Below are positions 50,570 through 63,449 of a DNA stretch of 64,000 bases, in pieces. The stretch's first letter is position 1; each line of letters starts with the position of its first letter. The notes under the pieces are model-generated. The model ran no database searches, was not told the origin of the DNA, and was given only the letters and a program-made list of their open reading frames with translations. Position numbers and translations under genes: made by a program. Source of the DNA: Minisyncoccota bacterium (lineage in GTDB: Bacteria; Patescibacteriota; Minisyncoccia; Phycocordibacterales; CAIZLB01); assembly GCA_021734945.1 (NCBI GenBank), contig JAIPIA010000001.1, positions 4,465 through 68,464 of the forward strand. Direction: 5' to 3'.

Positions 50570-51757
50570 ATGCGAAAAAAGATACTGGTAGCCACTGTCC
50601 TCGGATTGATGGTGATTGTACCCATAATCAGTCTGAAAGTGACAGGTTTAGAGTCAATAAAAGATACAAATCAAGATATTGTGGTCGCTAAGTCACTGAG
50701 CGATCTTCCTGTTGGCGAAGTTAAGGAGTATCAAGTACAGAAGGGTGATACTTTTGCCGGTGTCATGACCAATATGGGTATTCAATATGACGAAGCTCTT
50801 GCCATCATGAACTCTTCAAAAGATACTTTTGATTTCACTAAAATAAATGCTGGAAAGTTCTTGAAGTTTGTGTTTGTTAACGAAGCTTTTGCAGCGATGG
50901 AATATCCGCTCAACAGCGACACTGTCATTCATGTTAAAAGAGAAGATGATTCTTTCAAGATAACTGAGGAAGATATTCCGTACAATATTGAGATGACGAC
51001 AGCTAAGGGCACAATTACTGATTCTTTGTTTGTTGCGGCTCAGGATGTTGGAGTTGAGGATAAGGTTACGTTAAAACTTGCAGATATATTTTCTAGCGAC
51101 ATAGACTTTGCTACTGATATCCAAGACGGCGATTCGTTCTCTGTCGTGTATGAAAAGAGAACGTTAGATGGCAAGCCTGCCAGTGCGGGAAAAGTGCTTG
51201 GTGCAAAATTTACAAATGACGGTACAACTTACACCGCTTTTCGTTACAATGATGGATTCTATAATGAAGACGGAGAGTCACTCACTCGTCAATTTCTCAA
51301 ATCTCCACTCAACTATGCTCGTATAAGTTCGGGATTCAGTTTTAAGCGAACAAATCCAGTGACTAAACAGGTTACTCCTCATCGTGCTATTGATTACGCC
51401 GCATCTGCAGGTACTCCTGTTATTGCAACTGCTGATGGAACGGTCTCTGTTGCTGGTTCAAAAGGAGGTCTGGGAATAACGGTAGAGTTAAAGCATGGCG
51501 AGTATCTTACGCAATACGCTCATCTCTCAGATATTGCGGACGGTATTAAAAAGGGCGTCGATGTAAAACAAGGAGACATTGTCGGCTACGTAGGTTCAAC
51601 AGGCATTTCAACTGGTCCACATTTGCAGTATGCAATGTTTAAGAATGGTAACCCTATCAACCCATTAGATACGGATTTCCCAAGAGGAGAAGCTTTGAGT
51701 GATTCTGAAAAACCTAATTTTGATTCTGTAAAAAATAAATTACTAGGTCTTATCTAG
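50570..51757 (+). CDS. M23-family metallopeptidase (LytM/lysostaphin-like), secreted
   Basis: HRAIDYAASAGTPVIATADG, HGEYLTQYAHLS, GYVGSTGISTGPHLQYAM (HxxxD ... HxH motifs). Signal anchor. Confidence 0.8.
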   Translation: MRKKILVATVLGLMVIVPIISLKVTGLESIKDTNQDIVVAKSLSDLPVGEVKEYQVQKGDTFAGVMTNMGIQYDEALAIMNSSKDTFDFTKINAGKFLKFVFVNEAFAAMEYPLNSDTVIHVKREDDSFKITEEDIPYNIEMTTAKGTITDSLFVAAQDVGVEDKVTLKLADIFSSDIDFATDIQDGDSFSVVYEKRTLDGKPASAGKVLGAKFTNDGTTYTAFRYNDGFYNEDGESLTRQFLKSPLNYARISSGFSFKRTNPVTKQVTPHRAIDYAASAGTPVIATADGTVSVAGSKGGLGITVELKHGEYLTQYAHLSDIADGIKKGVDVKQGDIVGYVGSTGISTGPHLQYAMFKNGNPINPLDTDFPRGEALSDSEKPNFDSVKNKLLGLI

Positions 51758-53070
51758 TTGCTGAGTGATAGCACCTTATCCTTAAGTGTCAGTTTACTTT
51801 TTAGGTGACTCAGTAGTTCTCGCTTTTCGTATAGAGGTCTCTTTCTTAGAATGTGCTTGGCGTAGTTGCGTATATCTATATCTTTTATTTTTACTTTCTC
51901 TTTGACTTCTTTTCCTAGTACTGATTCTTGAAATTCATTATGAGCTTCTATTTCAGCTCTAATTCTGTCTTTCATTCCGATTTCATCTAGTGATATCACA
52001 TCAAGTACATTTGCTAATTGTTCTATCAAGTCTTCTTCTCGTACATACCCGCATTGGCAATTTTTATCCTTAAATTTAGTGCATCCATAGTAGACGTAGC
52101 GATTTGTCGTTCCGTCTTTAAGTTTCTTGAATTTCTCGTCAGCGGTTATGCCTGATCCACATAGTCCGCAGGTAATCATCTTGGTAAAGGCGAACTCCTT
52201 ATCCTGAGTCCTTGTTAGGTGATCGTTGCTTATCTTATCCTGCACTTGGTTATATAAATCTTTCGTGATGATCGGCTCGTGCTTTCCGACATACCATTGT
52301 CCGCTTCCTTTCGGGTACTCAAATTCGCCGTAGTAGAAAGTGCTTTTGAGAATTATGTACACATTACTCAGTGTCAGTGGCTTTCCGTGCTTTGTCTTGA
52401 ATCGTATGTCCTCAGCTAACCACTTGAAGAGCTTCCGTCCAGACCATCCGTCGTATGCTACTTTCTCGAACATCTGTTTAATCACATGAGCTCTTTGCTC
52501 ATCGGGCATCACCTCACACTTTCTGTTCCTGTCAGAGTGGCTCAGATAACCCGTTGGGGGAACTGATGGCCATAATCCCATTTCGCATCTCGCTCGAAGT
52601 CCTCGCTTTACGTTCACCATCTTGTTGTCGTTCTCCAGTTTCGCTTGGCTTCCCAAAATCATCAGAAGGAATTTCTCATTTGGATTGTTTGTGAACTTCT
52701 GTCCGTAAGTGCGGATTTCGTGCAGAAGCTTCTGATCCATCAGGTCTACTACCGACCCAAGGTCACCAGCATTTCTGCTTAATCGGTCGGGTTCCCATGT
52801 CAGGATTCCGTTAAATTTTCCTTGTCTTATTTCACTGATCAGCTCGTTATATACAGGTCTTTGTCCAACCTCTTTTGATGAGTGCGATTCTCGCTTTATT
52901 TCGACTATTTCTAAACCCTCTCGCTCGGCGAGACTTATCATCTCTTTAACCTGCGATTCTATTGATAATGCTTGTTTGTCTTCTTGCTCTGTTGATTTGC
53001 GAGCATAGAGGCAGTACTTAATCGGTATGACCTCCTCAGGCTTCTCTGGTTGCTTGTTTTCTATCTTCAT
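51754..53070 (-). CDS. large serine recombinase (resolvase/invertase catalytic domain, recombinase domain and zinc ribbon); probable integrase of the downstream island
   Basis: N-terminal YARKSTEQED...SIESQ catalytic Ser motif, DRLSRN, C-terminal CGLCGSG...YYGC zinc ribbon. 438 aa. Confidence 0.85.
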   Translation of the reverse strand: MKIENKQPEKPEEVIPIKYCLYARKSTEQEDKQALSIESQVKEMISLAEREGLEIVEIKRESHSSKEVGQRPVYNELISEIRQGKFNGILTWEPDRLSRNAGDLGSVVDLMDQKLLHEIRTYGQKFTNNPNEKFLLMILGSQAKLENDNKMVNVKRGLRARCEMGLWPSVPPTGYLSHSDRNRKCEVMPDEQRAHVIKQMFEKVAYDGWSGRKLFKWLAEDIRFKTKHGKPLTLSNVYIILKSTFYYGEFEYPKGSGQWYVGKHEPIITKDLYNQVQDKISNDHLTRTQDKEFAFTKMITCGLCGSGITADEKFKKLKDGTTNRYVYYGCTKFKDKNCQCGYVREEDLIEQLANVLDVISLDEIGMKDRIRAEIEAHNEFQESVLGKEVKEKVKIKDIDIRNYAKHILRKRPLYEKRELLSHLKSKLTLKDKVLSLSN

Positions 53071-53169: not shown

Positions 53170-56100
53170 TTGTTGTATGATTTGTTGCAAATATACACCA
53201 TGAGTGCCTCAAAATTTAAATTTTTAAAAGATGCTCCTATTGGAAAAGAATCCCAAGGTTTTTTTGATTTCTATCATAAAAATATAGCCCCAGCATTAAA
53301 GACAATTGTTGAAAATGATTCATGTGTTCATACTGTTGGTTTATTTGGGAAATGGGGTAGCGGAAAAAGTACTATTATCAAACTACTTAAAGAGGGTGGA
53401 GTTGAGGATGCGACCATCGTAGAATTCGACTGTTGGAAATATGAAAAGGATTCACTGAGAAGACAGTTGCTTTTACAGATCGCTAAAGATCTTGGTGTGA
53501 GTAGAAAGAATATCGATGAACTAGAAAAAGAGCTTTATTTTTCTTTGAGCGAAACTATAAATGAAAAAGTATCAATTTCTTGGGGATATCTAAAGAAAGT
53601 GGCACTTATTTCTTTCGCTTTTCTTCTGCCGGTAGGTTTTATAACATGGCAAATATTTCCTGATGTTGCTACACAATGGAAACTTTGGGTTGGCACTAGT
53701 TTTTCTCTAGTCTTATCCATTGCATTGTTAGTAGAGAAGGTGTTGGGTGATGATTTCAAAAAAATTATAATGGTCTCACCAATAACTGCCTCAAAAGCCC
53801 AACTCAGCTCCCCAGAACAGTTTGAGCGTTCTTTTATAAAGATATTAAAAACTACAAAAATCGATAAACAAAAAATTATTATTGTTATTGATAACCTTGA
53901 TCGTGTTGAATCGAAGGTAGCAACTGAGGTTTTGGCAACTCTCAAAACATTTTTAGAGATAAGTGAAGATAATTTGGGAAAAAAGAAGGTGATATTTCTT
54001 GTTCCGTGCGACTTTGATGCGATTAAAAAATCTGCTCCAAGTGCTGAGTTAGCGGATGAATTTTTAAGAAAGATTTTTAATGTAGTGATTTGGACACCTG
54101 AGTTCATCGATGTCGATATTCGAACATTTATAAAAGAACAAATAAGTCAGACTGGCGATATCAAAACTCACCTTGATGAAGAAGATGTAATTTTGGTCAT
54201 TGATTCCGCCTTTGCTAATAGCCCCAGAGAAATAAAACAATTTATAAACAATCTCATTTCTTCACTGATTGTTGCTTCTGAAACGGAAGTAAAAGATATT
54301 GTAGAAAAGAATGTTGCTTATATGGCAAAAGTACTTGTACTCATGCATAAATATCCAAAGGCATTTCAGAATCTAAAAAAGCTTTGGTATGCTCCTGAGG
54401 AAATTATTAATACTTATGAAGAGGTTCTCATAAAACATGAAAAAGAGGAATTTAACGAAGGCTTCAAAAATTTCATGCTGAGCACAAGCCGGATCACAGT
54501 ACTAGATGCTGAACCTTTCATTTATTTAAAGAAGCCTGTTGTATCTAATCGATTAACTAATGCAGACCCCATCCGACTTAGCCTTATTGAAGCAAAAGAG
54601 ACGGAGGCAAAAGACTTGGTGCAATCTGAGACTGACAAAGTTGCCCTTGTTGAGTTCATTATATCTATTTTGAATAAGTACCAGAACCAACCCGAAATAC
54701 TGAAGAACGTATTTATTACGCAACTTTCGATATTTAAAGAACTCAATATTTCAATTACAAAAAATTATTTAAACAAAGTAGGATCTCTTTTGGACGGTAA
54801 GGTATGGCCATATTTTCAAGATCTAAAGACAGACTTGATTTTTAGTTTTATTATCGCAGATGCTCAATTAGAACAGAATTTAAAGAAAAACATCCTAGAG
54901 CGGTATGTCTTGGCTTTAACTTCTACAGAAGAGTTTAAGAATTTTCAAAAAATAGAAATAGCAAAATTGATAATTAAAAGTTTGATTGAACATCAAAATC
55001 TGCTTACACCTGATCAAAAAATTAAGTTTGCACAGTCAATTGAACAAATATATACAGGTAAAGAAGACGTGATTGAATTATTTGTAAAAGCTGATGACCG
55101 TGGGCAGTTAATAACTAAGAAGACATTAGAGCAAGTAATAACAGGTAGTACTTTAGAGAATTTCTCTCTTAGGAAGGATCTATTCGTTAGCTTTCAGAAA
55201 TTGATTTCACTAAGAAAACTATTTTCTTTAATCTACGTTAAATTATCAGAATTATTGTCTCAACATAATACAAAACAGCCAGCTTTCGGTGAAGAAAAGG
55301 AACAGTATTTAAAACAGGTTCTTGAGCTAATATCCAAATATAAAGATGACCTTGCTCAGGTTCCAAAACCTGACGTAATTGAACTTGTAAGGTTGAATAT
55401 ACAAACGTTTAATAATATTAGCTCTTGGGATCAGCGGATTACGATTATCAATATCCTACAGCACTTACAGAGTATTGCAGATGATGGTCAAAAAGCGGAG
55501 ATAGGGTCTTTACTGAGTCAGTTTATACAGAATGCGACACCTGCGACTGTTCAAAAAATGTTTGCTTATTGGAAAATAACTTACATTCAATCTCTTATTA
55601 CAAAATTATTGACGCAATTACAACCGAGAATATCTTCAGATAAGATTTTTGCAAAAGTTATTTATGATTTTGCATCAACTGAGACCAGATTGGCAATATT
55701 AAAGTATCTTATTACTAACGAACATGATGCAACTATCGACTTTATCGGAACTCTTGCTGAAGGTGATTTTAATCGGGTTGAGGTAGTAAAAATGTTCTTG
55801 GATAAAGCTAAAACACTTCAAGCTAGCGATCGTGTAAGAATATATGATTTCATTTCTGAAAAAATTAGTATAAATGATGAGGTCGCTATAAAAGACCTTG
55901 TTGTAGAGCAAATCCGAGAATTACTTAATCAAGATGAACAAAATGTTTCCAAGGTTGGTTTTGATTTCTTTTGTAAGTCAGATTTTCTCGGGGAAGCTAA
56001 AAAGCGAGATGCTATCATAAAACCCGCGCTTGAATATCTTAGACAAGCTGGAAAAACTATAACTGAACAAAATAGTTACACGCTAAAAGCCATAGCCTCT

Positions 56101-56421
56101 TTTTTCAATAAACTACAGGAGACACCGCAAAAAGATTTTGTGTACTCTCTATTCAATATGTTGAGACCTGATAGAAATATGCAAACTATTGAAACTAGTC
56201 TTGAGAATTTGTTACTTGTTAAACCAGCTTTTGGCACATACGAGAAAGATTACAAAGATTTACTTGAGTCCCTAAAGAATTGGACTCAAGAAAACACAAA
56301 AACAAAGGTAATAGAGGCCATTGTTAGTCTTAAATCATTAGGTAATTTAAGTACCGAAGAAAAAGACTTTTGGAACTCAGTTGATGAGTTACTACCCAAA
56401 AAAGGAGAATCAGAAGTTTAA
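53170..56421 (+). CDS. KAP-family P-loop NTPase with TM helices inserted in the NTPase domain (Tmn-like); start possibly at 53200
   Basis: Walker A GLFGKWGSGKST, FDCWKYEKD, two hydrophobic helices (LISFAFLLPVGFITW, GTSFSLVLSIALLV) between Walker A and Walker B IIIVIDNLDR, KAP motif NSPREIKQFINNL. About 650-aa alpha-helical C-terminal region. Confidence 0.8.
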   Translation: MLYDLLQIYTMSASKFKFLKDAPIGKESQGFFDFYHKNIAPALKTIVENDSCVHTVGLFGKWGSGKSTIIKLLKEGGVEDATIVEFDCWKYEKDSLRRQLLLQIAKDLGVSRKNIDELEKELYFSLSETINEKVSISWGYLKKVALISFAFLLPVGFITWQIFPDVATQWKLWVGTSFSLVLSIALLVEKVLGDDFKKIIMVSPITASKAQLSSPEQFERSFIKILKTTKIDKQKIIIVIDNLDRVESKVATEVLATLKTFLEISEDNLGKKKVIFLVPCDFDAIKKSAPSAELADEFLRKIFNVVIWTPEFIDVDIRTFIKEQISQTGDIKTHLDEEDVILVIDSAFANSPREIKQFINNLISSLIVASETEVKDIVEKNVAYMAKVLVLMHKYPKAFQNLKKLWYAPEEIINTYEEVLIKHEKEEFNEGFKNFMLSTSRITVLDAEPFIYLKKPVVSNRLTNADPIRLSLIEAKETEAKDLVQSETDKVALVEFIISILNKYQNQPEILKNVFITQLSIFKELNISITKNYLNKVGSLLDGKVWPYFQDLKTDLIFSFIIADAQLEQNLKKNILERYVLALTSTEEFKNFQKIEIAKLIIKSLIEHQNLLTPDQKIKFAQSIEQIYTGKEDVIELFVKADDRGQLITKKTLEQVITGSTLENFSLRKDLFVSFQKLISLRKLFSLIYVKLSELLSQHNTKQPAFGEEKEQYLKQVLELISKYKDDLAQVPKPDVIELVRLNIQTFNNISSWDQRITIINILQHLQSIADDGQKAEIGSLLSQFIQNATPATVQKMFAYWKITYIQSLITKLLTQLQPRISSDKIFAKVIYDFASTETRLAILKYLITNEHDATIDFIGTLAEGDFNRVEVVKMFLDKAKTLQASDRVRIYDFISEKISINDEVAIKDLVVEQIRELLNQDEQNVSKVGFDFFCKSDFLGEAKKRDAIIKPALEYLRQAGKTITEQNSYTLKAIASFFNKLQETPQKDFVYSLFNMLRPDRNMQTIETSLENLLLVKPAFGTYEKDYKDLLESLKNWTQENTKTKVIEAIVSLKSLGNLSTEEKDFWNSVDELLPKKGESEV

Positions 56422-56513: not shown

Positions 56514-57335
56514 ATGGCAAAGAAGATTTTAGCTTACATAAAACAAAAACCTCACTTTTCACACAAAGATTTTGTACTGTATCTTGGTGATTCTACTGAT
56601 ATTCTCAACTCACTTCCTGAAGGTTCAATAGATATGATTTTTGCAGATCCTCCGTACATGCTTTCAAACGGAGGCTTTACTGTTCATGCTGGAAAAATGG
56701 TAAGTGTCGACAAAGGAAACTGGGACAAGAGTAAGGGATTTGATGAGGATTATGCTTTTCACAAAAGATGGTTGGAAGCGTGTCATAGGGTTTTAAAACC
56801 ACATGGCACCATCTGGGTTAGTGGCACCTATCACTCTATCTATCAATGTGGTCATGCAATTCAATCAATTGGCTTCCATGTCTTAAACGATATTACTTGG
56901 TTTAAACCAAACGCATCACCAAACCTTAGTTGCCGTTTCTTTACCGCAAGTCACGAGACGATTCTTTGGGCTAGGAAACATAAGAAAGCAAAACACACTT
57001 TCAATTACGATTTGATGAAAAATGGTGAATGGGCAGAAGATTTTATAAAGAAGCCTAATTTACAAATGCGTTCAGTGTGGGCAGTTAATCCTCCAAAGAA
57101 AGAAGAGAAGAAATTTACAAAGCACCCAACACAAAAACCCCTTTCACTTCTTGAGAGAATTGTCTTAGCTAGTACTAATAAGGGAGACATTGTACTCGAC
57201 CCATTTACTGGAAGTTCAACAACAGGAATCGCCGCGAAAAAGCACGGACGAAAGTTTATCGGTATTGATACTGAGGAGAAGTACTTAGATCTTTCTCAAA
57301 AACGCTTTCAAGATTTAGTCGGGGCTGGTAATTAA
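56514..57335 (+). CDS. beta-class N6-adenine/N4-cytosine DNA methyltransferase (DpnA/M.HinfI-like)
   Basis: Motif IV IFADPPY precedes motif I LDPFTGSSTTGIAAKKHGRKFIGID (beta permutation). Also TKHPTQKPLSLLERI. Confidence 0.85.
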   Translation: MAKKILAYIKQKPHFSHKDFVLYLGDSTDILNSLPEGSIDMIFADPPYMLSNGGFTVHAGKMVSVDKGNWDKSKGFDEDYAFHKRWLEACHRVLKPHGTIWVSGTYHSIYQCGHAIQSIGFHVLNDITWFKPNASPNLSCRFFTASHETILWARKHKKAKHTFNYDLMKNGEWAEDFIKKPNLQMRSVWAVNPPKKEEKKFTKHPTQKPLSLLERIVLASTNKGDIVLDPFTGSSTTGIAAKKHGRKFIGIDTEEKYLDLSQKRFQDLVGAGN

Positions 57336-58173
57336 CTATTACCACTTCGGATATTTTTCCACGTTTATCAGATTTTGAATTAATCATTCTATTGGCGTAT
57401 ACAGGAATCTGTTTATATCCAGAATATATTTCTTGAATAAAAGGTGCACTTGAATTGCTGAGCATTACATATACACCTTTTTTGTCGAGTTCAATAAATA
57501 AGTCTCGAAGCTTTATTTGGTCATCTTTAGAAAAAGAATCTTTACTGTAACTAGTAAAACTGGATGTCTCGGAAAGTGGGTGATACGGCGGATCAAAATA
57601 TACAAAATCTCCAGCTTTAGCATTCTTTACAGCATCAACAAATGAACCGCTCGTTATTTTAGCATTTGAAAGTATTTTAGAAACTGATCGCAGGTTTTCC
57701 TCGTCTACAATTTTTGGATTCTTGTAACTACCAATCGGTACATTGAATCCACCTTTTGAATTTTCTCGATACACACCATTAAATGCTGTCTTATTGAAGA
57801 AGAGGAAGTAGAGACTCTTATCAAAGTCTTCATGAGATAATGAATTATATCTTTCCCGTAATGCATAATAAACCTCTTTGCGAGCAATCTCGTCTTTTTT
57901 GAGAAAATCTTCCTCAAGTTTCTTAAGAGACTTTATCAATCCCTCTACATCATTCTTTATGTGAATATAAGTCTGAGCAAGTGTTTTATTTATATCGTTG
58001 ATATGTGCCTTTTTAGGATTAATTGAAAAAAATACCGCACCTCCACCGATAAAGGGTTCAAAGTATGAATTAAATTCTTTCGGGAAAAGACTCTCGAACT
58101 GAGCAAGAAGTTGTCCCTTTCCACCTACCCATTTTAGGAATGGTTTTGCTTTTTTAGTGTTATTTAACTTCAC
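57256..58173 (-). CDS. alpha-class Dam-family N6-adenine DNA methyltransferase (DpnM/GATC-type)
   Basis: PFLKWVGGKGQLL, motif I YFEPFIGGGAVFF, INDIN, motif IV VYFDPPYHP. The 3' 80 nt overlap the convergent beta-methyltransferase gene. Confidence 0.85.
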   Translation of the reverse strand: MKLNNTKKAKPFLKWVGGKGQLLAQFESLFPKEFNSYFEPFIGGGAVFFSINPKKAHINDINKTLAQTYIHIKNDVEGLIKSLKKLEEDFLKKDEIARKEVYYALRERYNSLSHEDFDKSLYFLFFNKTAFNGVYRENSKGGFNVPIGSYKNPKIVDEENLRSVSKILSNAKITSGSFVDAVKNAKAGDFVYFDPPYHPLSETSSFTSYSKDSFSKDDQIKLRDLFIELDKKGVYVMLSNSSAPFIQEIYSGYKQIPVYANRMINSKSDKRGKISEVVIVNYQPRLNLESVFEKDLSTSPQYQYR

Positions 58174-58248
58174 GGTTCCATTTTATCATTTTGGAATCAA
58201 TAAGCCTATATCATTGTTATTGGACTGATTTTGTGATTAAATTGAATC

Positions 58249-58773
58249 ATGAAAATAGGAGGGATTGGAGGTGCTAATACAAAATCAGGGCTCCATTTTG
58301 AAGGAAGGGTTGATTTCCTTGAGGTTCTTAAGACTGTGTCTGGATACGAAGTAAAGGAAGATGGATCAATCTTATTTCAAGGCAAGGTGGTTGCTCTCAA
58401 CCTTCGAAAGAGTCGACTCTACAAATACCTTGAAAGCAAGGGTGTAAACCATAAAGAAATTCTATCAAAGAAGCTTCTACCTGATGATGCGATCCTGATT
58501 CTTGGCACTAATGCATTTTATGTAATTGAAATTAAGTTTCAGAGTGTCGCAGGATCGGTAGATGAAAAATTACAGACATGTCATTTTAAAAAACGACAGT
58601 ATGAAAAGCTAATGGATTCACTCGGTGTAAAAGTTGAGTATATTTATATTCTAAGTGAGTGGTTCCAAGCACCTGCATACAAAGATGTACTCGCATATAT
58701 CAAGGAGGTTGACTGCGATTATTTCTTTGAAGAAATCACACTAAATCGACTAGGTCTTCCGTCTCCAAAATAA
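58249..58773 (+). CDS. candidate type II restriction endonuclease (PD-(D/E)xK fold), 174 aa
   Basis: LPDDAILILGTNAFYVIEIKFQ gives a textbook PD-x(13)-EIK signature. Adjacent to the two methyltransferases. Confidence 0.4.
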   Translation: MKIGGIGGANTKSGLHFEGRVDFLEVLKTVSGYEVKEDGSILFQGKVVALNLRKSRLYKYLESKGVNHKEILSKKLLPDDAILILGTNAFYVIEIKFQSVAGSVDEKLQTCHFKKRQYEKLMDSLGVKVEYIYILSEWFQAPAYKDVLAYIKEVDCDYFFEEITLNRLGLPSPK

Positions 58774-59340
58774 TTATCTGAAGCCTGGCATCGCTGACTG
58801 GAGCACTTCGGTATAATGTTTGTTTCCATCGATATAATCTCTCAGTATTAATAGAAGATTTTTAAACATATATGCTCCTGGGTTTATTTTCTCGTTTTTA
58901 CAGAACAGCTCAATCATTATTGCTACATAGTCCAAAGAAAGTGTGTAGTCTTGTTCGATGTGTGCATATCTTGTCGTAATTTCATTGATAGTTTCAAGTT
59001 GATATTTATTTCTGTCTTCAACAGATATAAATGGTGATGTACGTTCGTAGAAATCGATATAGTACTGAACTATAGATCGTACATCATCTCGGTACTGCGG
59101 AATTTTTAACAATAAATCTACCACCCAAAAAGTGTGAGTTGGTGGAGTCATTACTTTACTAGCTCCAGGCACGAGAATTTTTATAACAAAGTCTATGTCT
59201 GGTCTCGTGCCTCGATTACCTTGGAATAATCCAATCAAGGTTCCGTCACGAGTTGCATATGTTTTAAAGGCGACGAGGCGAGGTCTCAGCTGTCCGAGGT
59301 CAGTTCCATTATAGTATTTTGAATTATAGATGTGTGGCAT
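58774..59340 (-). CDS. hypothetical protein (188 aa); possible second R-M or defense component
   Basis: Tail-to-tail with the PD-(D/E)xK gene, with abutting stop codons. No recognised motif. Confidence 0.35.
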   Translation of the reverse strand: MPHIYNSKYYNGTDLGQLRPRLVAFKTYATRDGTLIGLFQGNRGTRPDIDFVIKILVPGASKVMTPPTHTFWVVDLLLKIPQYRDDVRSIVQYYIDFYERTSPFISVEDRNKYQLETINEITTRYAHIEQDYTLSLDYVAIMIELFCKNEKINPGAYMFKNLLLILRDYIDGNKHYTEVLQSAMPGFR

Positions 59341-59510
59341 TAGGTCAATTATAGCAAAAAGTAGACTGTTGGTAACCCGAGCTTCGCAAGGCTCTATATC
59401 TAAGCTAGAGTCTAGATAGATAGCTCTGTTTTTGCTATCATGTACTTATACAACAAAGACCTAACCCCTTAGAAAACGCTTAGTTTCCTAAGGATATGGT
59501 CGGAATAATA

Positions 59511-59680
59511 AAACCGCTACAGTATAGAAGACTCCTCGTCAGAGTCACTGTAGCGGTCGCGTACCCGAAAGGGTATGTGGGTCTGATCGAAAGATTGGAT
59601 CACAATGGCGGGGAGTCTTCTGTCTCACGACTCAAGGCTTCTTGCTAATTACCAGCATTAAGTCAAAACCGCTACAGTGA
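59511..59680 (+). repeat. GC-rich structured element bounded by 13-bp direct repeats (aaaccgctacagt) with nested inverted repeats
   Basis: The direct repeat sits at 59511-59523 and 59666-59678, with an inverted copy actgtagcggt at 59547-59557. gaagactcc (59527) pairs with ggagtcttc (59612). tacccGAAAgggta is a tetraloop hairpin. GC content is far above the flanks. Confidence 0.4.
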
Positions 59681-60150
59681 CTCAAAAAAATAATGATCTG
59701 GATAAGATCAATAAAAATATCTACATTAAAACCTATGTGGTCAGTATTGTTTCGTACCTGATTCTCGTAGGACTCATCTCAACCTTTCTTGAAAGTCCGT
59801 TTATTCAAACACTTTTAGTTACAGCAGGAGCTCTTCTTGTTTGGACTATATTCAAATCGATCATTGGTTCAGTTACATTCAATTTGTTCTTTAGAAATGA
59901 TCTAATTGAAAAGTACCTACACGAGTTTAAGGCGAATGATTTTCCTAAACCACAGGATTATGAAATGGAAGAGGTTGAATCGTACTTACAAACAATTGCG
60001 ATGAATCCTGATAATCATCCAAAAAATATTGTTGCCACAGGAATGCTTAGCGAATTTGGGCACGCCCGTACTCAAGGAAGTATGCTCGTCTTACTCAGAC
60101 TGACAAAGGTTATGAAAAAGGCTTTGAGGAAATATAGCTACTTCAGTTAA
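59677..60150 (+). CDS. hypothetical membrane protein (GTG start inside the direct repeat; start uncertain)
   Basis: 157-aa ORF with two TM helices. Confidence 0.3.
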   Translation: MTQKNNDLDKINKNIYIKTYVVSIVSYLILVGLISTFLESPFIQTLLVTAGALLVWTIFKSIIGSVTFNLFFRNDLIEKYLHEFKANDFPKPQDYEMEEVESYLQTIAMNPDNHPKNIVATGMLSEFGHARTQGSMLVLLRLTKVMKKALRKYSYFS

Positions 60151-60550: not shown

Positions 60551-61873
60551 ATGAACAAAGAAAATCTAAAGATTGTGTACGTCTCAATCTACAGCCTTGT
60601 CGCAAATGACAAGAATCCACGCAAATGGAGTGAGGAACAAAAGGAACAGCTCAAGGAAAGCATCAAACGATTCGGCAACGTCGATCCGATAATCGTGAAC
60701 ACACACGAGGAAAGGAAAAATATAATCGTCGGAGGACATTTTCGTGTGGAAGCGTGTAAGGAACTGGGATACAAGAATATGCCAGTCGTATTCGTGAATC
60801 TCACACCAGAAAAAGAAGCAGAACTAAACCTTAGACTCAACCGCAATCAAGGAGAGTTTGATCTTGAGATGCTCGCTGAGTTCGACAGCTCAATGCTTCT
60901 TGATATTGGATTTACTTCAGAAGATATCGACGATATTTTTCCAACTGACAAAAATGAAGAGCAATTTGATCTACAAAAGGAATTGGATAAGCTCGATATC
61001 ACAGTCGAAGCCAAGAAAGGTGAAATATACGATCTCGATGGGTCACGACTTATGATTGGTGATTCTACAATCGAAGCAGATATGTTGAAACTCATAGGTG
61101 ACAACAAAGTGGACATGGTTCTTACAGATCCTCCATATATTCTTGATTATCTAAAAGGTAAAGGTCGTGGTAAAGATGGTCCGACTGTCGGGTTCGGTTC
61201 AAAGAAGAATCGCAGATATTTGGAGACTGATGTTTTACCTGAAAACTTCTCTGATCTATGGATGGCAAATGTCGCAAAGGTACAAAAACCAGACTTCTCG
61301 ATTATTATCTTTGAGAATCCTAAAAATCTACGAACCATATGGAATGCACTCGAGGTTCATTGGAAATACAGAAACACTATCACATGGCATGTACCAAATC
61401 GTATGCAGGGATTTTCTGCTTCAAACAAGTTCTTCAACAAGACAGATATCGCACTCGTTGGATCTTCAGGAGAAGTAAATCTCAATCTTGAACCAGAAGA
61501 AGGCTTGTTCCAAAACGAATATGAGAATGCAATATTTGCCACTTCAGGAAAACCTCACTTTGAGCCGTATGAGAAAGGAAAGAAAATCTGTCCGACAGAC
61601 TTCATATCTCATACCGCCGCAGATAAAAAGTCTTCAGGGCAAGAAATTATCTTCGGAACAAAACCAATTGAGCTCCTCATTCCATATCTGAAAGTACTCA
61701 CCAAGAGAAATGATCTCATTCTTGAACCATTCGGAGGAAGTGGAAGTACGCTCATCGCTTCAGTGAAGATGGGTCGCCGTTGCTTCATTATGGAAAAATC
61801 ACACGTATATGCAGAAGTCATTATGAACCGCTGGGAGAAAGAGACTGGTAAGAAGCGTAAGAAAATTAACTAG
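60551..61873 (+). CDS. ParB-like nuclease domain fused to a beta-class N6A/N4C DNA methyltransferase (phage/plasmid-type orphan methylase)
   Basis: N-terminal ParB/Srx fold (IVYVSIYSLVANDKNPRKW...IIVGGHFRVEACKELG). Then methyltransferase motif IV VLTDPPY and motif I LEPFGGSGSTLIAS. Confidence 0.8.
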   Translation: MNKENLKIVYVSIYSLVANDKNPRKWSEEQKEQLKESIKRFGNVDPIIVNTHEERKNIIVGGHFRVEACKELGYKNMPVVFVNLTPEKEAELNLRLNRNQGEFDLEMLAEFDSSMLLDIGFTSEDIDDIFPTDKNEEQFDLQKELDKLDITVEAKKGEIYDLDGSRLMIGDSTIEADMLKLIGDNKVDMVLTDPPYILDYLKGKGRGKDGPTVGFGSKKNRRYLETDVLPENFSDLWMANVAKVQKPDFSIIIFENPKNLRTIWNALEVHWKYRNTITWHVPNRMQGFSASNKFFNKTDIALVGSSGEVNLNLEPEEGLFQNEYENAIFATSGKPHFEPYEKGKKICPTDFISHTAADKKSSGQEIIFGTKPIELLIPYLKVLTKRNDLILEPFGGSGSTLIASVKMGRRCFIMEKSHVYAEVIMNRWEKETGKKRKKIN

Positions 61874-61875
61874 AT

Positions 61876-62262
61876 ATGGCAGTAGATCTAAAGATCAAGA
61901 AGCAAAAGGAAGTTCTGCTTGAGCATCTGCGTACTGTGCCGATTGTTGAAGTAGCTTGCAAGAAAGGAGGAATCTCCAGAGCTACTTTCTATCGCTGGTG
62001 TAGTGACGATGAAGAGTTCAAGACAGAAGTTGAGAACGCCAAGGTAGATGGTGTTGAGAACATAAACGATATGTCGGAAGCTCAACTCATTTCTCTCATC
62101 AGAGAGAAAAAGTATCAAGCTATAGCACTGTGGCTCAAGAACAATCACTATAGATTTATGTCGGAGGACAAGCAAAACCTCATCAGGAAAGTTCAAAAGA
62201 AAACCGAGCTTAATCTCCAACAGAAGGAGTTACTCAAAGAAGCCCTCAAACATTACAAATGA
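61876..62262 (+). CDS. terminase small-subunit-like HTH protein
   Basis: N-terminal HTH ACKKGGISRATFYRWCSDDEEF, typical of TerS and phage DNA-binding proteins. Overlaps the next gene via ATGA. Confidence 0.4.
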   Translation: MAVDLKIKKQKEVLLEHLRTVPIVEVACKKGGISRATFYRWCSDDEEFKTEVENAKVDGVENINDMSEAQLISLIREKKYQAIALWLKNNHYRFMSEDKQNLIRKVQKKTELNLQQKELLKEALKHYK

Positions 62263-63449
62263 AAAAACTATCTCCAGAAGTAATACAGGCAGTCATTAAT
62301 GACACTGCCGTGCGAACTGCACTCGTGTACCAAAATCACGAGGCATTTTGCAGTATCTACCTCAGGAGACATTTGAAATATGAGTTTGCTTGGTTCCATA
62401 AGGAGATGTTTCGGATTACCGAGTCATACCAACACAAGCTCAACGTATTCATGGCATTTAGAGGTTCAGGAAAGTCGACAATCCTGAACCTTTCTAATGT
62501 CCTGTGGAGTATTACAGGAAAGCATCAAAAGAAATTTGTAATAGTAGTAAGCAAGACTCGTGTTCAGTCACAATCTCATTTCGATAACATAAAGCAAGAA
62601 CTCGAAGAAAACGAATTACTCAAACATGACCTCGGTCCATTCCAAGCGACCAAGGAAGATTGGGGTGCATACACTATTGAAATACCAAAGTACGGAGCAA
62701 AGATTATGTGCATTGGAGCCAATCAAAACATACGAGGACTCAAGTATCGTGATCACCGTCCTGACCTAATTATCTGTGACGATATCGAGGATATAAACTC
62801 ATTTACTGACAGAGACCAAATCAAGACTCTCTATGACTGGTTTATGGGAGAACTCTGGTCTATCGGTGACGAAACTATAAATATTGTTGTTCTTGGAAAC
62901 TTGCTCAGCCCATCTTCAATCATGATTAAGTTGTACAAAGCTATTAAGAAAAAAGAAATGCCGGGCATATTCAAAGCGTATCCGCTTCTCGATGATTACA
63001 ATCGCATTCTATGGTCAGCAAAGTATCCTGATGCAAAGACTATTAAAGAAATTGAGCGAGGTTTGCCACGACCACGACGAGATGACTTATATACAATATT
63101 CTCTCGTGAATATTTGTTAGATATGTCCTTGGTTGATACTGATGAGATGCTAGAGAAGCACAAAACACCAATACGTGCTGGCGGAAAGACAGTAAAGAGT
63201 TTTGATATCTCTGCTCCAATGTGGGCTATTGGAACAGTGTGGTATTTTCCTGATGATTTAAGTAATTTCAATTTAGCCGTTGATGATCTGGATGGTTATC
63301 CACTTGAGAAATATATTGAAATTGAAAAGGAATATATTAAATTACAGCAAGAGAAGTATCCAAACTATCAGGTAAAGGTGAGAGGCAGTCAAGGTGAGTC
63401 ACGTGGGTTTGAGGATCACCCTGATAGACCGATGAGGTATAGGGGGTAG
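62259..63449 (+). CDS. terminase large-subunit-like ATPase (short; nuclease domain appears truncated or divergent)
   Basis: Walker A AFRGSGKST, Walker B LIICDDIED, with TerL-like spacing. Only 396 aa. Confidence 0.45.
   Translation: MKKLSPEVIQAVINDTAVRTALVYQNHEAFCSIYLRRHLKYEFAWFHKEMFRITESYQHKLNVFMAFRGSGKSTILNLSNVLWSITGKHQKKFVIVVSKTRVQSQSHFDNIKQELEENELLKHDLGPFQATKEDWGAYTIEIPKYGAKIMCIGANQNIRGLKYRDHRPDLIICDDIEDINSFTDRDQIKTLYDWFMGELWSIGDETINIVVLGNLLSPSSIMIKLYKAIKKKEMPGIFKAYPLLDDYNRILWSAKYPDAKTIKEIERGLPRPRRDDLYTIFSREYLLDMSLVDTDEMLEKHKTPIRAGGKTVKSFDISAPMWAIGTVWYFPDDLSNFNLAVDDLDGYPLEKYIEIEKEYIKLQQEKYPNYQVKVRGSQGESRGFEDHPDRPMRYRG

What the first reader, a model, noticed from the sequence alone, without database searches (positions are those of the whole stretch)
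56514..59340. DpnII-like GATC restriction-modification cassette with convergent, 80-bp-overlapping alpha and beta methyltransferase genes and a small PD-(D/E)xK nuclease
A Dam-like alpha-MTase (minus strand) and a DpnA/HinfI-like beta-MTase (plus strand) converge and overlap by 80 nt at their 3' ends (57256-57335). The extra C-terminal tail of the alpha-MTase is encoded antisense to the beta-MTase C-terminus. Next to them, a 174-aa ORF carries a textbook PD-x13-EIK nuclease motif. A 188-aa ORF of unknown function abuts it tail-to-tail. Two MTases plus one REase mirrors the DpnII system (DpnM, DpnA, DpnB), but the orientation is rearranged and the nuclease is unusually small. The overlap could give mutual antisense control of the two MTases.
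Basis: partly seen in the sequence, partly recalled or inferred. Interest (0 to 1): 0.55.

Follow-up and report, generated by a model that had tools for sequence, protein, structure and literature searches.

The report
GATC restriction-modification cassette, novel small nuclease
This is a DpnII-like GATC restriction-modification cassette in a decayed prophage of a Patescibacteria genome, ordinary in kind, but its cutting enzyme belongs to a large uncharacterised small-nuclease family and it carries a conserved fourth protein of unknown fold that recurs next to GATC methylase genes.

Summary
All four ORFs and the 80-nt convergent overlap are at the stated coordinates. The minus-strand gene is a Dam-family methyltransferase closest to DpnM. 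The plus-strand gene is a beta-class DpnA-type methyltransferase.

The 174-aa protein ("N") has an invariant PD…ExK motif and a confident model that matches only PD-(D/E)XK nucleases. Its family has over 4,000 clusters across many phyla. In 80 species genomes it lies beside a beta and/or Dam methyltransferase wherever enough flank is present. In otherwise homologous Dam–X–beta cassettes, X is either N or a DpnII-family endonuclease. So N is best read as a non-orthologous GATC restriction enzyme. No methylome or cleavage assay was available, so the specificity is inferred.

The 188-aa protein ("P") belongs to a family with no Pfam, PDB or viral-structure match. It recurs with GATC methylase modules, including inside canonical Dam>beta>P>DpnII operons. 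Its role is unknown.

The 80-nt overlap is lineage-specific. Relatives overlap by 7–29 nt, and the Dam tail is an unconstrained read-through, so antisense control is unsupported.

Sister loci carry LexA–methyltransferase fusions and MutH-like nucleases in the nuclease slot.

The parts
56514..57335 (+). Beta-class N6-adenine DNA methyltransferase, DpnA type ('B1'), 273 aa. The DPPY and DPFxGSxTTG motifs are intact.
   Evidence: PF01555 at 1.3e-64. PADLOC MTase_II PDLC03371 at 3e-101. CcrM catalytic domain 6pbd at 6e-62, but far below the NCBIfam CcrM cutoff (252 vs 830). 51-53% identical to the beta MTase inside Dam>beta>P>DpnII operons.
57256..58173 (-). Alpha-class Dam-family N6-adenine methyltransferase (DpnM-like), 305 aa, GTG start. 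The last ~24 aa are a non-conserved tail.
   Evidence: PF02086 at 2.5e-67 and TIGR00571 at 3.7e-90, with the profile ending at aa 281. Best PDB match is DpnM 2dpm at 2.1e-73, aligned over residues 2-283.
57256..57335 (.). 80-nt convergent overlap of the two methyltransferase ORFs. The Dam read-through tail lies antisense to the beta-MTase C-terminus, and the stretch contains one GATC at 57288.
   Evidence: The comparison shows an 80-nt overlap only in L018-L021 and L005, and 20, 29 and 7 nt in L023, L029 and L006. The substitution pattern follows the beta frame.
58174..58248 (.). 75-nt divergent intergenic region between the Dam gene and the nuclease gene. It presumably holds both promoters (inferred).
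   Evidence: Sequence. It contains no GATC. No strong consensus promoter was called here.
58249..58773 (+). 174-aa PD-(D/E)XK nuclease ('N' family), the inferred GATC restriction endonuclease of the cassette.
   Evidence: P78, D79, E94, K96 and GSVDEKLQT are invariant. AF2 pLDDT is 86.4. Foldseek PDB hits are all PD-(D/E)XK nucleases, best E 5e-3. All 34 family members weakly hit PF20472. MTase linkage is shown, and slot replacement of the DpnII REase.
58774..59340 (-). 188-aa protein ('P' family) of unknown fold and biochemistry, an accessory gene of GATC methylase modules.
   Evidence: 100% identical to K9M11_00260 of a Candidatus Pacebacteria MAG. AF2 pLDDT is 91.7. No match in Pfam, NCBIfam, PADLOC, PHROGs, PDB or BFVD.
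59348..59375 (-). Promoter-like site just upstream of the 188-aa gene: TTACCA, 16 nt, TG-TATAAT (10 of 12 matches).
   Evidence: This is a consensus match only, and the number of sites in the region equals the shuffle expectation.
51754..53070 (-). Context: large serine recombinase/integrase at one edge of the island.
   Evidence: phrog_95 integrase at 3.5e-66. Resolvase, Recombinase and Zn_ribbon domains in the identical locus L002.
53170..56421 (+). Context: 1083-aa KAP-family P-loop NTPase. It is not part of the conserved cassette, being absent in L004/L005.
   Evidence: PF07693 at 1.6e-26. Weak QatA and PifA matches. Absence in relatives shown.
60551..63449 (+). Context: phage-type ParB-methyltransferase (60551-61873), small-terminase-like HTH protein (61876-62262) and a truncated large terminase (62259-63449). 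Together these mark a degraded prophage.
   Evidence: phrog_38 TerL at 1.3e-35, matching only positions 266-522 of the 760-position profile.

Best explanation
The region is a type II, DpnII-like restriction-modification cassette that most likely targets GATC. It is carried as cargo between the serine integrase and the terminase genes of a degraded prophage in a Candidatus Pacebacteria (Patescibacteria) genome.

Two N6-adenine methyltransferases protect the host. One is a DpnM-like alpha enzyme. The other is a DpnA-type beta enzyme. In pneumococcus this type also methylates single-stranded DNA, but that property is inferred here by homology class only.

The restriction enzyme is not a DpnII/MboI-family protein. 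It is a 174-aa member of a large, uncharacterised PD-(D/E)XK family ('N'). By inference it cuts unmethylated GATC, presumably as a homodimer.

The 188-aa protein ('P') is a fourth, accessory component. It travels with GATC methyltransferases whichever nuclease partners them. I think it most likely binds DNA or an MTase and modulates the methylation/restriction balance. This part is weakly supported, at about 0.4 among the P hypotheses.

The 80-nt MTase overlap arose when the Dam stop codon was lost and translation ran on into the antisense of the beta gene. Convergent transcription is a real property of the layout, but nothing indicates it is regulatory.

Shown here: gene identities, nuclease fold class, gene linkage, slot replacement and GATC depletion. 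Inferred: GATC specificity, cleavage activity, the ssDNA role of the beta MTase, and any role of P.
For: Methyltransferases:
- Family assignments. DpnM is the best solved relative of the alpha enzyme.
- The beta enzyme is 51-53% identical to the beta MTase inside canonical Dam>beta>P>DpnII operons, and 49% to one beside Dam and a DpnII REase in Akkermansia.

Nuclease fold: invariant PD...ExK, AF2 pLDDT 86, only PD-(D/E)XK structures retrieved, and 34/34 members hit PF20472 weakly.

Linkage, from 80 loci in 80 species genomes:
- 39-43 B1>N, often with a 4-nt overlap.
- 7 Dam>N>beta (the order I recall for MboI).
- 7 Dam>beta>N (the order I recall for DpnII).
- 4 Dam>N.
- The only N genes without an MTase lie at contig ends.

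Slot replacement: L012 Dam-DpnII_REase-B2 against L024/L027/L034 Dam-N-B2. Dam is 66-68% identical and B2 is 76-85% identical.

A third GATC nuclease family, MutH (PF02976, 4.7e-9), fills the same slot in sister loci.

External anchors:
- Campylobacter has B1>N. Its MTase is of the dpnA/hp0092 type. That type is assigned to fully methylated G6mATC in C. coli (PMC4687069).
- The gonococcal NgoAXI locus (leuS-drg/dam-truncated DpnIIB-like MTase; PMC4269198, PMC6789123) carries an unannotated, truncated N gene straight after the frameshifted MTase.
- A Leuconostoc plasmid has Dam>N-like.

GATC depletion:
- In the window, 171 observed against 255 expected, z -6.7. GANTC is at 1.06.
- Across 63 N-bearing loci GATC is the most depleted 4-mer palindrome, at O/E 0.69.

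Foreign origin: GC is 0.33-0.36 against about 0.40 for the rest of the window. Integrase and a truncated TerL are present. The same cassette lies in the same island type in L004/L005.
Against: - No methylome and no cleavage data, so GATC is inferred from context.
- In the PDB, the beta MTase's best match is the GANTC enzyme CcrM. Its identity to DpnII-cassette beta MTases is only modestly higher.
- The structural matches of N are weak (best E 5e-3, TM about 0.35). N scores below the Pfam gathering threshold (19.2 vs 23.7).
- N is unusually conserved for a restriction enzyme, at over 50% identity across phyla.
- A MutH-family nickase can occupy its slot, which also fits a repair-type role.
- GATC depletion had no matched control set, and GGCC is nearly as depleted.
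- For P there is no biochemical clue at all.
Confidence: 0.72

Rival explanations
1. N is not a restriction enzyme. It is a methyl-directed nicking or repair nuclease, a MutH analogue, that works with GATC methylation for strand discrimination or damage processing. On this reading the module is a DNA-repair/epigenetic unit, not a defence unit.
For: A MutH-family protein occupies exactly the N slot in sister loci. In many Patescibacteria the partner MTase is fused to a complete LexA SOS repressor. N is small and unusually conserved across phyla.
Against: N swaps with a bona fide DpnII-family restriction enzyme between nearly identical MTases. It sometimes coexists with that enzyme (L070, L095, viral loci). 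It spreads patchily across phyla, plasmids and viral contigs in 2-gene M>R operons, as R-M systems do. In gonococcus it decays together with its MTase.
Confidence: 0.12
2. The system is real, but the beta MTase and N recognise GANTC (HinfI/CcrM-like) or another site. The Dam gene would then be an independent passenger.
For: The best solved relative of the beta MTase is CcrM (6e-62, ~45% identity). NCBIfam's best hit is the CcrM model. 39-43 of 80 loci have only B1>N with no Dam.
Against: - GANTC is not depleted in the window (1.06), while GATC is (0.67).
- B1-type MTases sit in Dam>B1>DpnII-REase operons.
- N also pairs with Dam alone and with the unrelated B2 MTase of DpnII cassettes.
- The Campylobacter/Helicobacter B1-type enzyme is assigned to G6mATC.
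- The CcrM score is far below its cutoff, and the CcrM C-terminal domain is absent.
Confidence: 0.07
3. The methyltransferases serve the (pro)phage as anti-restriction or epigenetic enzymes. N and P would be unrelated or inactive cargo, so no functional R-M system exists here.
For: The cassette lies in a degraded prophage next to a phage-type ParB-MTase. Phages commonly carry orphan Dam and beta MTases (PHROG hits).
Against: All four ORFs are full length with intact catalytic motifs. The four-gene block is conserved at 82-90% protein identity in other genomes. N is never found without an MTase when flank is available.
Confidence: 0.05
4. P (188 aa) is itself an endonuclease of a new fold, a second or alternative GATC restriction enzyme. 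'P> LexA-B1<' pairs would then be complete R-M systems, and the window would carry two nucleases, as I recall SsuDAT1I does.
For: In 21 of 74 P loci the only neighbour from the module is a convergent MTase, which is a classic R/M pair layout. Near-invariant D50, H69, D75, K79, E150 and K151 hold across members only ~20% identical. The family is basic, with median pI 8.9. A Dam-P fusion exists.
Against: P has no nuclease fold or motif match in Pfam, PDB or BFVD. The predicted conserved acidic and lysine residues lie on helices, not on a PD-(D/E)XK sheet. P is embedded between the M and R genes of operons that already have a DpnII enzyme. The fusion is known from a single 2.7-kb contig.
Confidence: 0.2

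Closest known systems
DpnII system of Streptococcus pneumoniae (dpnM, dpnA, dpnB)
   Same: It has two GATC-type N6-adenine MTases of the same two classes. The alpha enzyme matches DpnM at 2.1e-73, and the beta enzyme is of the type found in DpnII-family operons. It also has one endonuclease. Distant N-family loci even keep the gene order Dam>beta>nuclease.
   Different: The endonuclease is not a PF04556 DpnII-family protein. Profile comparison with that family gives only a short motif resemblance, IExxF[YQ]xxxGS..KL, at E 0.034. The gene layout here is convergent/divergent (B1> <Dam N> <P), not a collinear operon, and there is a fourth gene.
MboI / HpyAIII-type GATC systems (M-R-M or M-R)
   Same: The Dam>X>beta order of MboI-like cassettes is found with X = N in 7 species. 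Those MTases are 66-85% identical to the MTases of a cassette with X = DpnII-family REase. The single beta MTase plus nuclease pairs resemble HpyAIII-type two-gene systems, and the Campylobacter homologue of hp0092 is assigned to G6mATC.
   Different: In those cassettes N replaces the DpnII-family REase. It is 174 aa, against 285 aa for the DpnII-family REase in L012. No described enzyme of this family was found in the libraries I could search.
SsuDAT1I of Streptococcus suis (two MTases and two isoschizomeric GATC endonucleases; from my own knowledge)
   Same: Some relatives carry both a DpnII-family REase and N beside the two MTases (L070 D>R2>N>B2; L095; viral loci). If P were a nuclease, the window would also have two.
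   Different: The window has no DpnII-family gene, and P has no nuclease signature.
Controller (C) proteins of type II R-M systems
   Same: In L176-L179 and L205-L208, P sits immediately upstream of the REase gene and is translationally coupled to it, which is the usual C-gene position.
   Different: P is about 180-190 aa, roughly twice the usual C-protein size as I recall it. It has no HTH or Xre match. In the window and most Patescibacteria loci it is convergent with the nuclease or MTase and has its own promoter-like site.
Neisseria NgoAXI / dam-drg locus
   Same: This locus downstream of leuS alternates GATC-related genes (dam or drg) followed by a DpnIIB-like MTase (PMC4269198, PMC6789123). 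My search shows an N-family gene immediately after that MTase, so it is the same Dam>B1>N module.
   Different: In gonococcus the MTase is frameshifted and N is cut short at residue 151, so that module is decayed. Here all genes are intact.

Membership tests
DpnII-type R-M system (GATC, two MTases + REase) | Alpha-class Dam/DpnM-like m6A MTase with motif I (FxGxG) and DPPY | tested here: met
   PF02086 at 2.5e-67 and TIGR00571 at 3.7e-90, above cutoff. DpnM 2dpm at 2.1e-73 over its full length. FEPFIGGGA and FDPPY are present.
DpnII-type R-M system (GATC, two MTases + REase) | Beta-class DpnA-type m6A MTase | tested here: met
   PF01555 at 1.3e-64. 51-53% identical to the beta MTase of Dam>beta>P>DpnII-REase operons. 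No authentic DpnA sequence was available for direct comparison.
DpnII-type R-M system (GATC, two MTases + REase) | Endonuclease of the DpnII family (PF04556) | tested here: not met
   No PF04556 hit for the 174-aa protein or for any of 34 homologues, even at E<=10. hhalign against three DpnII-family proteins gives E 0.034 and probability 1.5%.
DpnII-type R-M system (GATC, two MTases + REase) | Collinear operon dpnM-dpnA-dpnB | tested here: not met
   The window layout is B1> <Dam N> <P. The collinear order is present in more distant N-family loci.
DpnII-type R-M system (GATC, two MTases + REase) | G6mATC methylation and cleavage of unmethylated GATC | not testable with these tools
   Indirect evidence only: slot replacement, MutH-family alternative, GATC depletion and literature anchors.
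PD-(D/E)XK nuclease superfamily (174-aa protein) | Conserved (P)D ... (D/E)xK catalytic motif | tested here: met
   P78, D79, E94 and K96 are invariant in 34 sequences down to 55% identity. The motif is also kept in the N. gonorrhoeae and Leuconostoc relatives.
PD-(D/E)XK nuclease superfamily (174-aa protein) | Alpha-beta-beta-beta-alpha-beta core fold | tested here: met
   AF2 pLDDT 86.4 and pTM 0.81. The top Foldseek PDB hits are cap-snatching endonucleases, Cdn1, XisH, BstEII and Hjc. They are weak, though: best E 5e-3, TM 0.35-0.40.
PD-(D/E)XK nuclease superfamily (174-aa protein) | Pfam PDDEXK_11 (PF20472) membership at gathering score | tested here: inconclusive
   Window protein scores 19.2 bits against a cutoff of 23.7. 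All 34 members hit, best E 2.5e-5, and 9 also hit NERD.
CcrM/HinfI-type GANTC methyltransferases (beta MTase) | NCBIfam CcrM equivalog score and the C-terminal CcrM domain | tested here: not met
   252 bits against a cutoff of 830. Only positions 7-250 of the 350-position profile are matched, and the protein is 273 aa.
C (controller) proteins (188-aa protein) | Small Xre-type HTH protein | tested here: not met
   188 aa. No HTH family at E<=10 in any of 46 family members.
MutH/Sau3AI family (174- or 188-aa protein) | PF02976 MutH domain | tested here: not met
   No hit for either protein. A true MutH-family gene is instead found in the N slot of L112.

The most novel reading that the evidence does not exclude
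The 188-aa P family is a genuine, previously undescribed fourth component of GATC methylation/restriction modules, with a fold unlike anything solved. It would be either a new-fold GATC endonuclease or a reader/regulator of GATC methylation. Alongside it, the 174-aa N family would be a new, very widespread family of GATC restriction enzymes. In Patescibacteria the module would be wired to the SOS response through LexA-methyltransferase fusions, so that RecA-ssDNA could switch DNA methylation. That would be a functional parallel to competence-induced DpnA in pneumococcus.
Probability: 0.3. Interest if true: 0.7.

Novelty: new variant of a known kind. Interest (0 to 1): 0.45.

Why it matters
R-M systems for GATC are textbook, so the cassette as such is not surprising. 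Three things go beyond routine.

1. A family of about 174-aa nucleases with thousands of members in many bacterial and some archaeal phyla appears to be an unrecognised, non-orthologous GATC restriction enzyme. Examples include Campylobacter and a decayed copy in gonococcus. Today the family is annotated 'hypothetical', and in Campylobacter coli sometimes wrongly as 'Sua5/YciO/YrdC'. Naming it would improve defence-system annotation and could yield a compact MboI-like enzyme.

2. A conserved protein with no structural match accompanies GATC methyltransferases whichever nuclease partners them. This gives a testable handle on how methylation and restriction are balanced.

3. The sister loci with LexA-methyltransferase fusions suggest a link between the SOS/ssDNA signal and DNA methylation in Patescibacteria.

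Tried and rejected
- Sequence and profile searches of PDB gave nothing for N or P.
- P has no hit in Pfam, NCBIfam, PADLOC or PHROGs, in plasmids or in IMG/VR.
- N has no hit in GenBank phages.
- A metagenome scan with the diverse P alignment failed for lack of conserved stretches.
- Profile comparison of N with DpnII-family REases, and of N with P, was not significant. I do not claim N is a shortened DpnII enzyme.
- HrgA (DUF511), the gene that replaces hpyIIIR in H. pylori, was considered as an identity for N. It was rejected because HrgA is 310-320 aa and a different family.
- The KAP NTPase was considered as part of the system. It was rejected because it is absent from the otherwise identical cassette in L004/L005.
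- Antisense regulation through the overlap was examined by comparative analysis and found unsupported. No intrinsic terminators above chance were found.
- The paper of Ando et al. 2003 on hpyIIIR could not be read. No literature was found on LOOT RNA function or on LexA-MTase fusions.


Full report
**Observation.** The first two converge and share 80 nt, 57256-57335. The last two abut stop-to-stop with no spacer. The plus-strand ORF is a beta-class N6/N4 methyltransferase (PF01555, 1.3e-64). The minus-strand ORF is a Dam-family enzyme (PF02086, 2.5e-67; TIGR00571, 3.7e-90), and that profile ends at residue 281, leaving a 24-aa tail. The region has lower GC (0.33-0.36) than most of the window.

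**Source and setting.** The 188-aa protein is 100% identical to K9M11_00260 of a Candidatus Pacebacteria MAG, and near-identical contigs carry the same layout. The cassette is flanked by these genes:
- a large serine integrase at 51754-53070
- a KAP-family NTPase
- a phage-type ParB-methyltransferase
- a small-terminase-like protein
- a truncated large terminase at 62259-63449 (phrog_38, 1.3e-35, partial profile)

So the cassette sits in a decayed prophage. A genome whose N protein is about 82% identical has the same four-gene block between the same integrase and ParB-MTase/terminase genes but lacks the KAP NTPase. The KAP gene is therefore not part of the unit.

**The methyltransferases.** The alpha enzyme aligns end to end with DpnM of the pneumococcal DpnII system (2dpm, 2.1e-73), ahead of E. 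coli and T4 Dam. The beta enzyme's best solved relative is the catalytic domain of CcrM (6e-62). It scores far below the NCBIfam CcrM cutoff and lacks the CcrM C-terminal domain. Two unrelated beta-MTase types occur in these cassettes. B1, the window type, is about 255-290 aa. B2 is about 248 aa. B1-type enzymes that are 51-53% identical to the window protein lie between Dam and a DpnII-family endonuclease in canonical operons. That is higher than the 44.6% identity to CcrM.

**The 174-aa protein (N).** It has no significant family or PDB sequence match, only PF20472 PDDEXK_11 at 1e-3, below threshold. It does have more than 4,000 homologous clusters, nearly all annotated as hypothetical. P78, D79, E94, K96 and a GSVDEKLQT block are invariant. 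An AlphaFold model is confident (pLDDT 86.4). Its Foldseek hits in the PDB are all PD-(D/E)XK nucleases: cap-snatching endonucleases, Cdn1, XisH, BstEII and Hjc. They are weak, with best E 5e-3. All 34 aligned members hit PDDEXK_11 and nine hit NERD. The nuclease fold class is therefore supported.

**Gene linkage of N.** A scan of one genome per species found at least 576 species with the family. They include Patescibacteria, Elusimicrobiota, Alpha-, Beta- and Gammaproteobacteria, Campylobacter, Akkermansia, Omnitrophota and DPANN archaea. The 80 best loci have these architectures:

| Architecture | Loci |
|---|---|
| B1>N, often overlapping by 4 nt | 39-43 |
| Dam>N>B2 | 7 |
| Dam>B1>N | 7 |
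| Dam>N | 4 |
| Window layout B1> <Dam N> <P (closest relatives only) | 5-6 |
| Both a DpnII-family REase and N | 2 |

The only N genes without a methyltransferase lie at contig ends.

**Slot replacement.**
- L012-L014 carry P> Dam> DpnII-REase (PF04556)> B2> in the same island type.
- L024, L027 and L034 carry Dam> N> B2>. Their Dam is 66-68% identical and their B2 is 76-85% identical to those of L012.

The same methyltransferase pair thus works with either nuclease. In further sister loci the slot is filled by a MutH-family protein (PF02976, 4.7e-9). MutH is a third family, known for GATC recognition.

**External anchors.**
- Campylobacter: it carries B1>N (L088). The dpnA-type, hp0092-like methyltransferase of C. 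coli BfR-CA-9557 is assigned to GATC, which is 99.7% m6A-methylated there (PMC4687069).
- N. gonorrhoeae: the NgoAXI locus is described as leuS, drg or dam, then a truncated DpnIIB-like methylase (PMC4269198, PMC6789123). tblastn shows an unannotated N gene, cut short at residue 151, directly after the frameshifted B1. It is a decayed Dam>B1>N module.
- Leuconostoc: a plasmid has Dam followed by a distant N homologue.

**GATC depletion.**
- In the window, GATC is depleted (171 observed, 255 expected, z -6.7) while GANTC is not (ratio 1.06).
- Over 63 N-bearing loci GATC is the most depleted 4-mer palindrome, at 0.69, with GGCC close behind and no control set.

Together these make GATC the most likely specificity. 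It remains an inference.

**The 188-aa protein (P).** It matches nothing in Pfam, NCBIfam, PADLOC, PHROGs or the PDB. Its close homologues are 68-88% identical across Patescibacteria lineages. The model is very confident (pLDDT 91.7) and shows a short N-terminal beta sheet followed by a helical bundle. Foldseek finds no similar structure in the PDB or BFVD. An exhaustive profile search found 138 representatives. Across members only about 20% identical, G41, D50, H69, W72, D75, K79, L145, E150 and K151 are nearly invariant. The family is basic.

**Contexts of P.**
- In 74 metagenomic loci, P is typically tail-to-tail with a B1 methyltransferase: 21 loci are P> LexA-B1<.
- Often N (8 loci with LexA-B1, others without) or a MutH-like gene (about 8 loci) lies in between.
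- P also precedes a canonical Dam>DpnII>B2 cassette.
- Two divergent subfamilies lie inside four-gene operons Dam>B1>P>DpnII-REase, with overlapping or abutting reading frames. They match the window protein directly at E about 1e-9.
- One 462-aa protein fuses Dam to a P domain, but it is known from a single short contig.

P is therefore a recurrent companion of GATC methyltransferases and is independent of the nuclease type. It is not a classical C protein (no HTH, 188 aa). Whether it is a regulator, a DNA reader or a nuclease cannot be decided here.

**The overlap.** Among relatives with the same convergent layout, the overlap is 80 nt only in the closest clade. It is 20, 29 and 7 nt in L023, L029 and L006, where Dam ends right after the conserved ...NY. 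Within the 80 nt, substitutions fall mainly on beta-frame third positions, which are Dam second positions. The only conserved part of the Dam tail (PQYQYR) is the antisense of the conserved beta motif KFIGID. The tail is thus a read-through after loss of the ancestral stop and is not a selected feature. Terminator-like sites are no more frequent than in shuffled sequence, and none lies at either convergent junction. So 3' transcript overlap between B1/Dam and N/P is likely, but a regulatory role is untested.

**Comparison and novelty.** The cassette works like DpnII/MboI-type systems. It fails one defining feature of the DpnII family, because the endonuclease is not PF04556, and its gene order differs. 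I file it as a new variant of a known kind. The unusual elements are the N nuclease family, the P family, and in sister loci the LexA-methyltransferase fusions. REBASE could not be consulted, so N may already be listed there as a putative enzyme.

**Verdict.** The core interpretation is supported on indirect but convergent evidence (confidence about 0.7). The antisense-control idea is unsupported. Interest is moderate, at 0.45.

Noticed in passing
Related loci, e.g. L117:5571-7061(-), L109:6181-8034(-), L114:6121-7644(-), L123:3690-5156(-), L140:5587-7047(-), L129:5589-7037(-): In many Patescibacteria loci the homologue of the window's beta MTase is one ORF of about 480-620 aa. A complete LexA (PF01726 + PF00717) is fused to its N-terminus. 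The LexA part keeps the AAG cleavage site and the Ser and Lys catalytic residues. This suggests RecA/ssDNA-responsive control of a DpnA-type methyltransferase. No paper on such fusions was found.
   Followed up: partly
L112:5568-6188(-) and about 8 other loci of the P-family set: A MutH-family protein (PF02976, 4.7e-9) occupies the slot between P and the LexA-MTase gene, where the 174-aa nuclease sits in other loci.
   Followed up: partly
window 59458-59601 (+): A LOOT RNA (Rfam RF03000, 51.8 bits against a gathering score of 46.4, E 1.6e-7) lies in the intergenic region upstream of, and divergent from, the 188-aa gene. It contains two GATC sites. Its function is unknown, and its presence in related islands was not checked.
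   Followed up: no
window 53170-56421 (+): A 1083-aa KAP-family P-loop NTPase, with weak QatA and PifA similarity, lies between the integrase and the cassette. It may be a separate defence gene. It is absent from the otherwise identical island in L004/L005.
   Followed up: partly
window 51754-53070 and 60551-63449: The island is a degraded prophage. It has a serine integrase, a ParB-MTase, a small-terminase-like HTH protein and a large terminase truncated to 396 aa (507 aa in L004). According to L001, metal-resistance genes follow it. Related islands carry different GATC cassettes at the same position.
   Followed up: partly
L172 (N. gonorrhoeae NZ_CP119142.1 6934-15386): 3303-4004 and 4001-4456: The published NgoAXI/drg locus contains an unannotated remnant of the 174-aa nuclease family, 151 aa with a premature stop. 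It lies right after the frameshifted DpnIIB-like methylase. Two 2.17-Mb gonococcal chromosomes are filed as plasmids in PLSDB.
   Followed up: partly
Protein cluster of L088:5001-5516 (Campylobacter): Many Campylobacter coli members of the nuclease family, in 140-aa forms, are annotated 'Sua5/YciO/YrdC/YwlC family protein'. This looks like a propagated misannotation. Others are labelled 'PD-(D/E)XK nuclease superfamily protein' or hypothetical.
   Followed up: no
L174:817-2205 (protein P0268): A 462-aa protein fuses a Dam-family methyltransferase (aa 12-256) to a P-family domain (aa 294-441). It is known from a single 2.7-kb contig, so an assembly or frameshift artefact is not excluded.
   Followed up: partly
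L176 vs L205 (Dam>beta>P>DpnII operons): Between these two operons Dam, the beta MTase and the DpnII REase are 73%, 86% and 79% identical, but P is only 48% identical. P evolves much faster than its neighbours there. In Patescibacteria the P subfamily is instead the most conserved gene of the block.
   Followed up: no
window 59677-60150 (+): A 157-aa ORF with a hydrophobic N-terminal half and no family match lies between the LOOT RNA and the ParB-MTase. It is conserved in position in L001.
   Followed up: no
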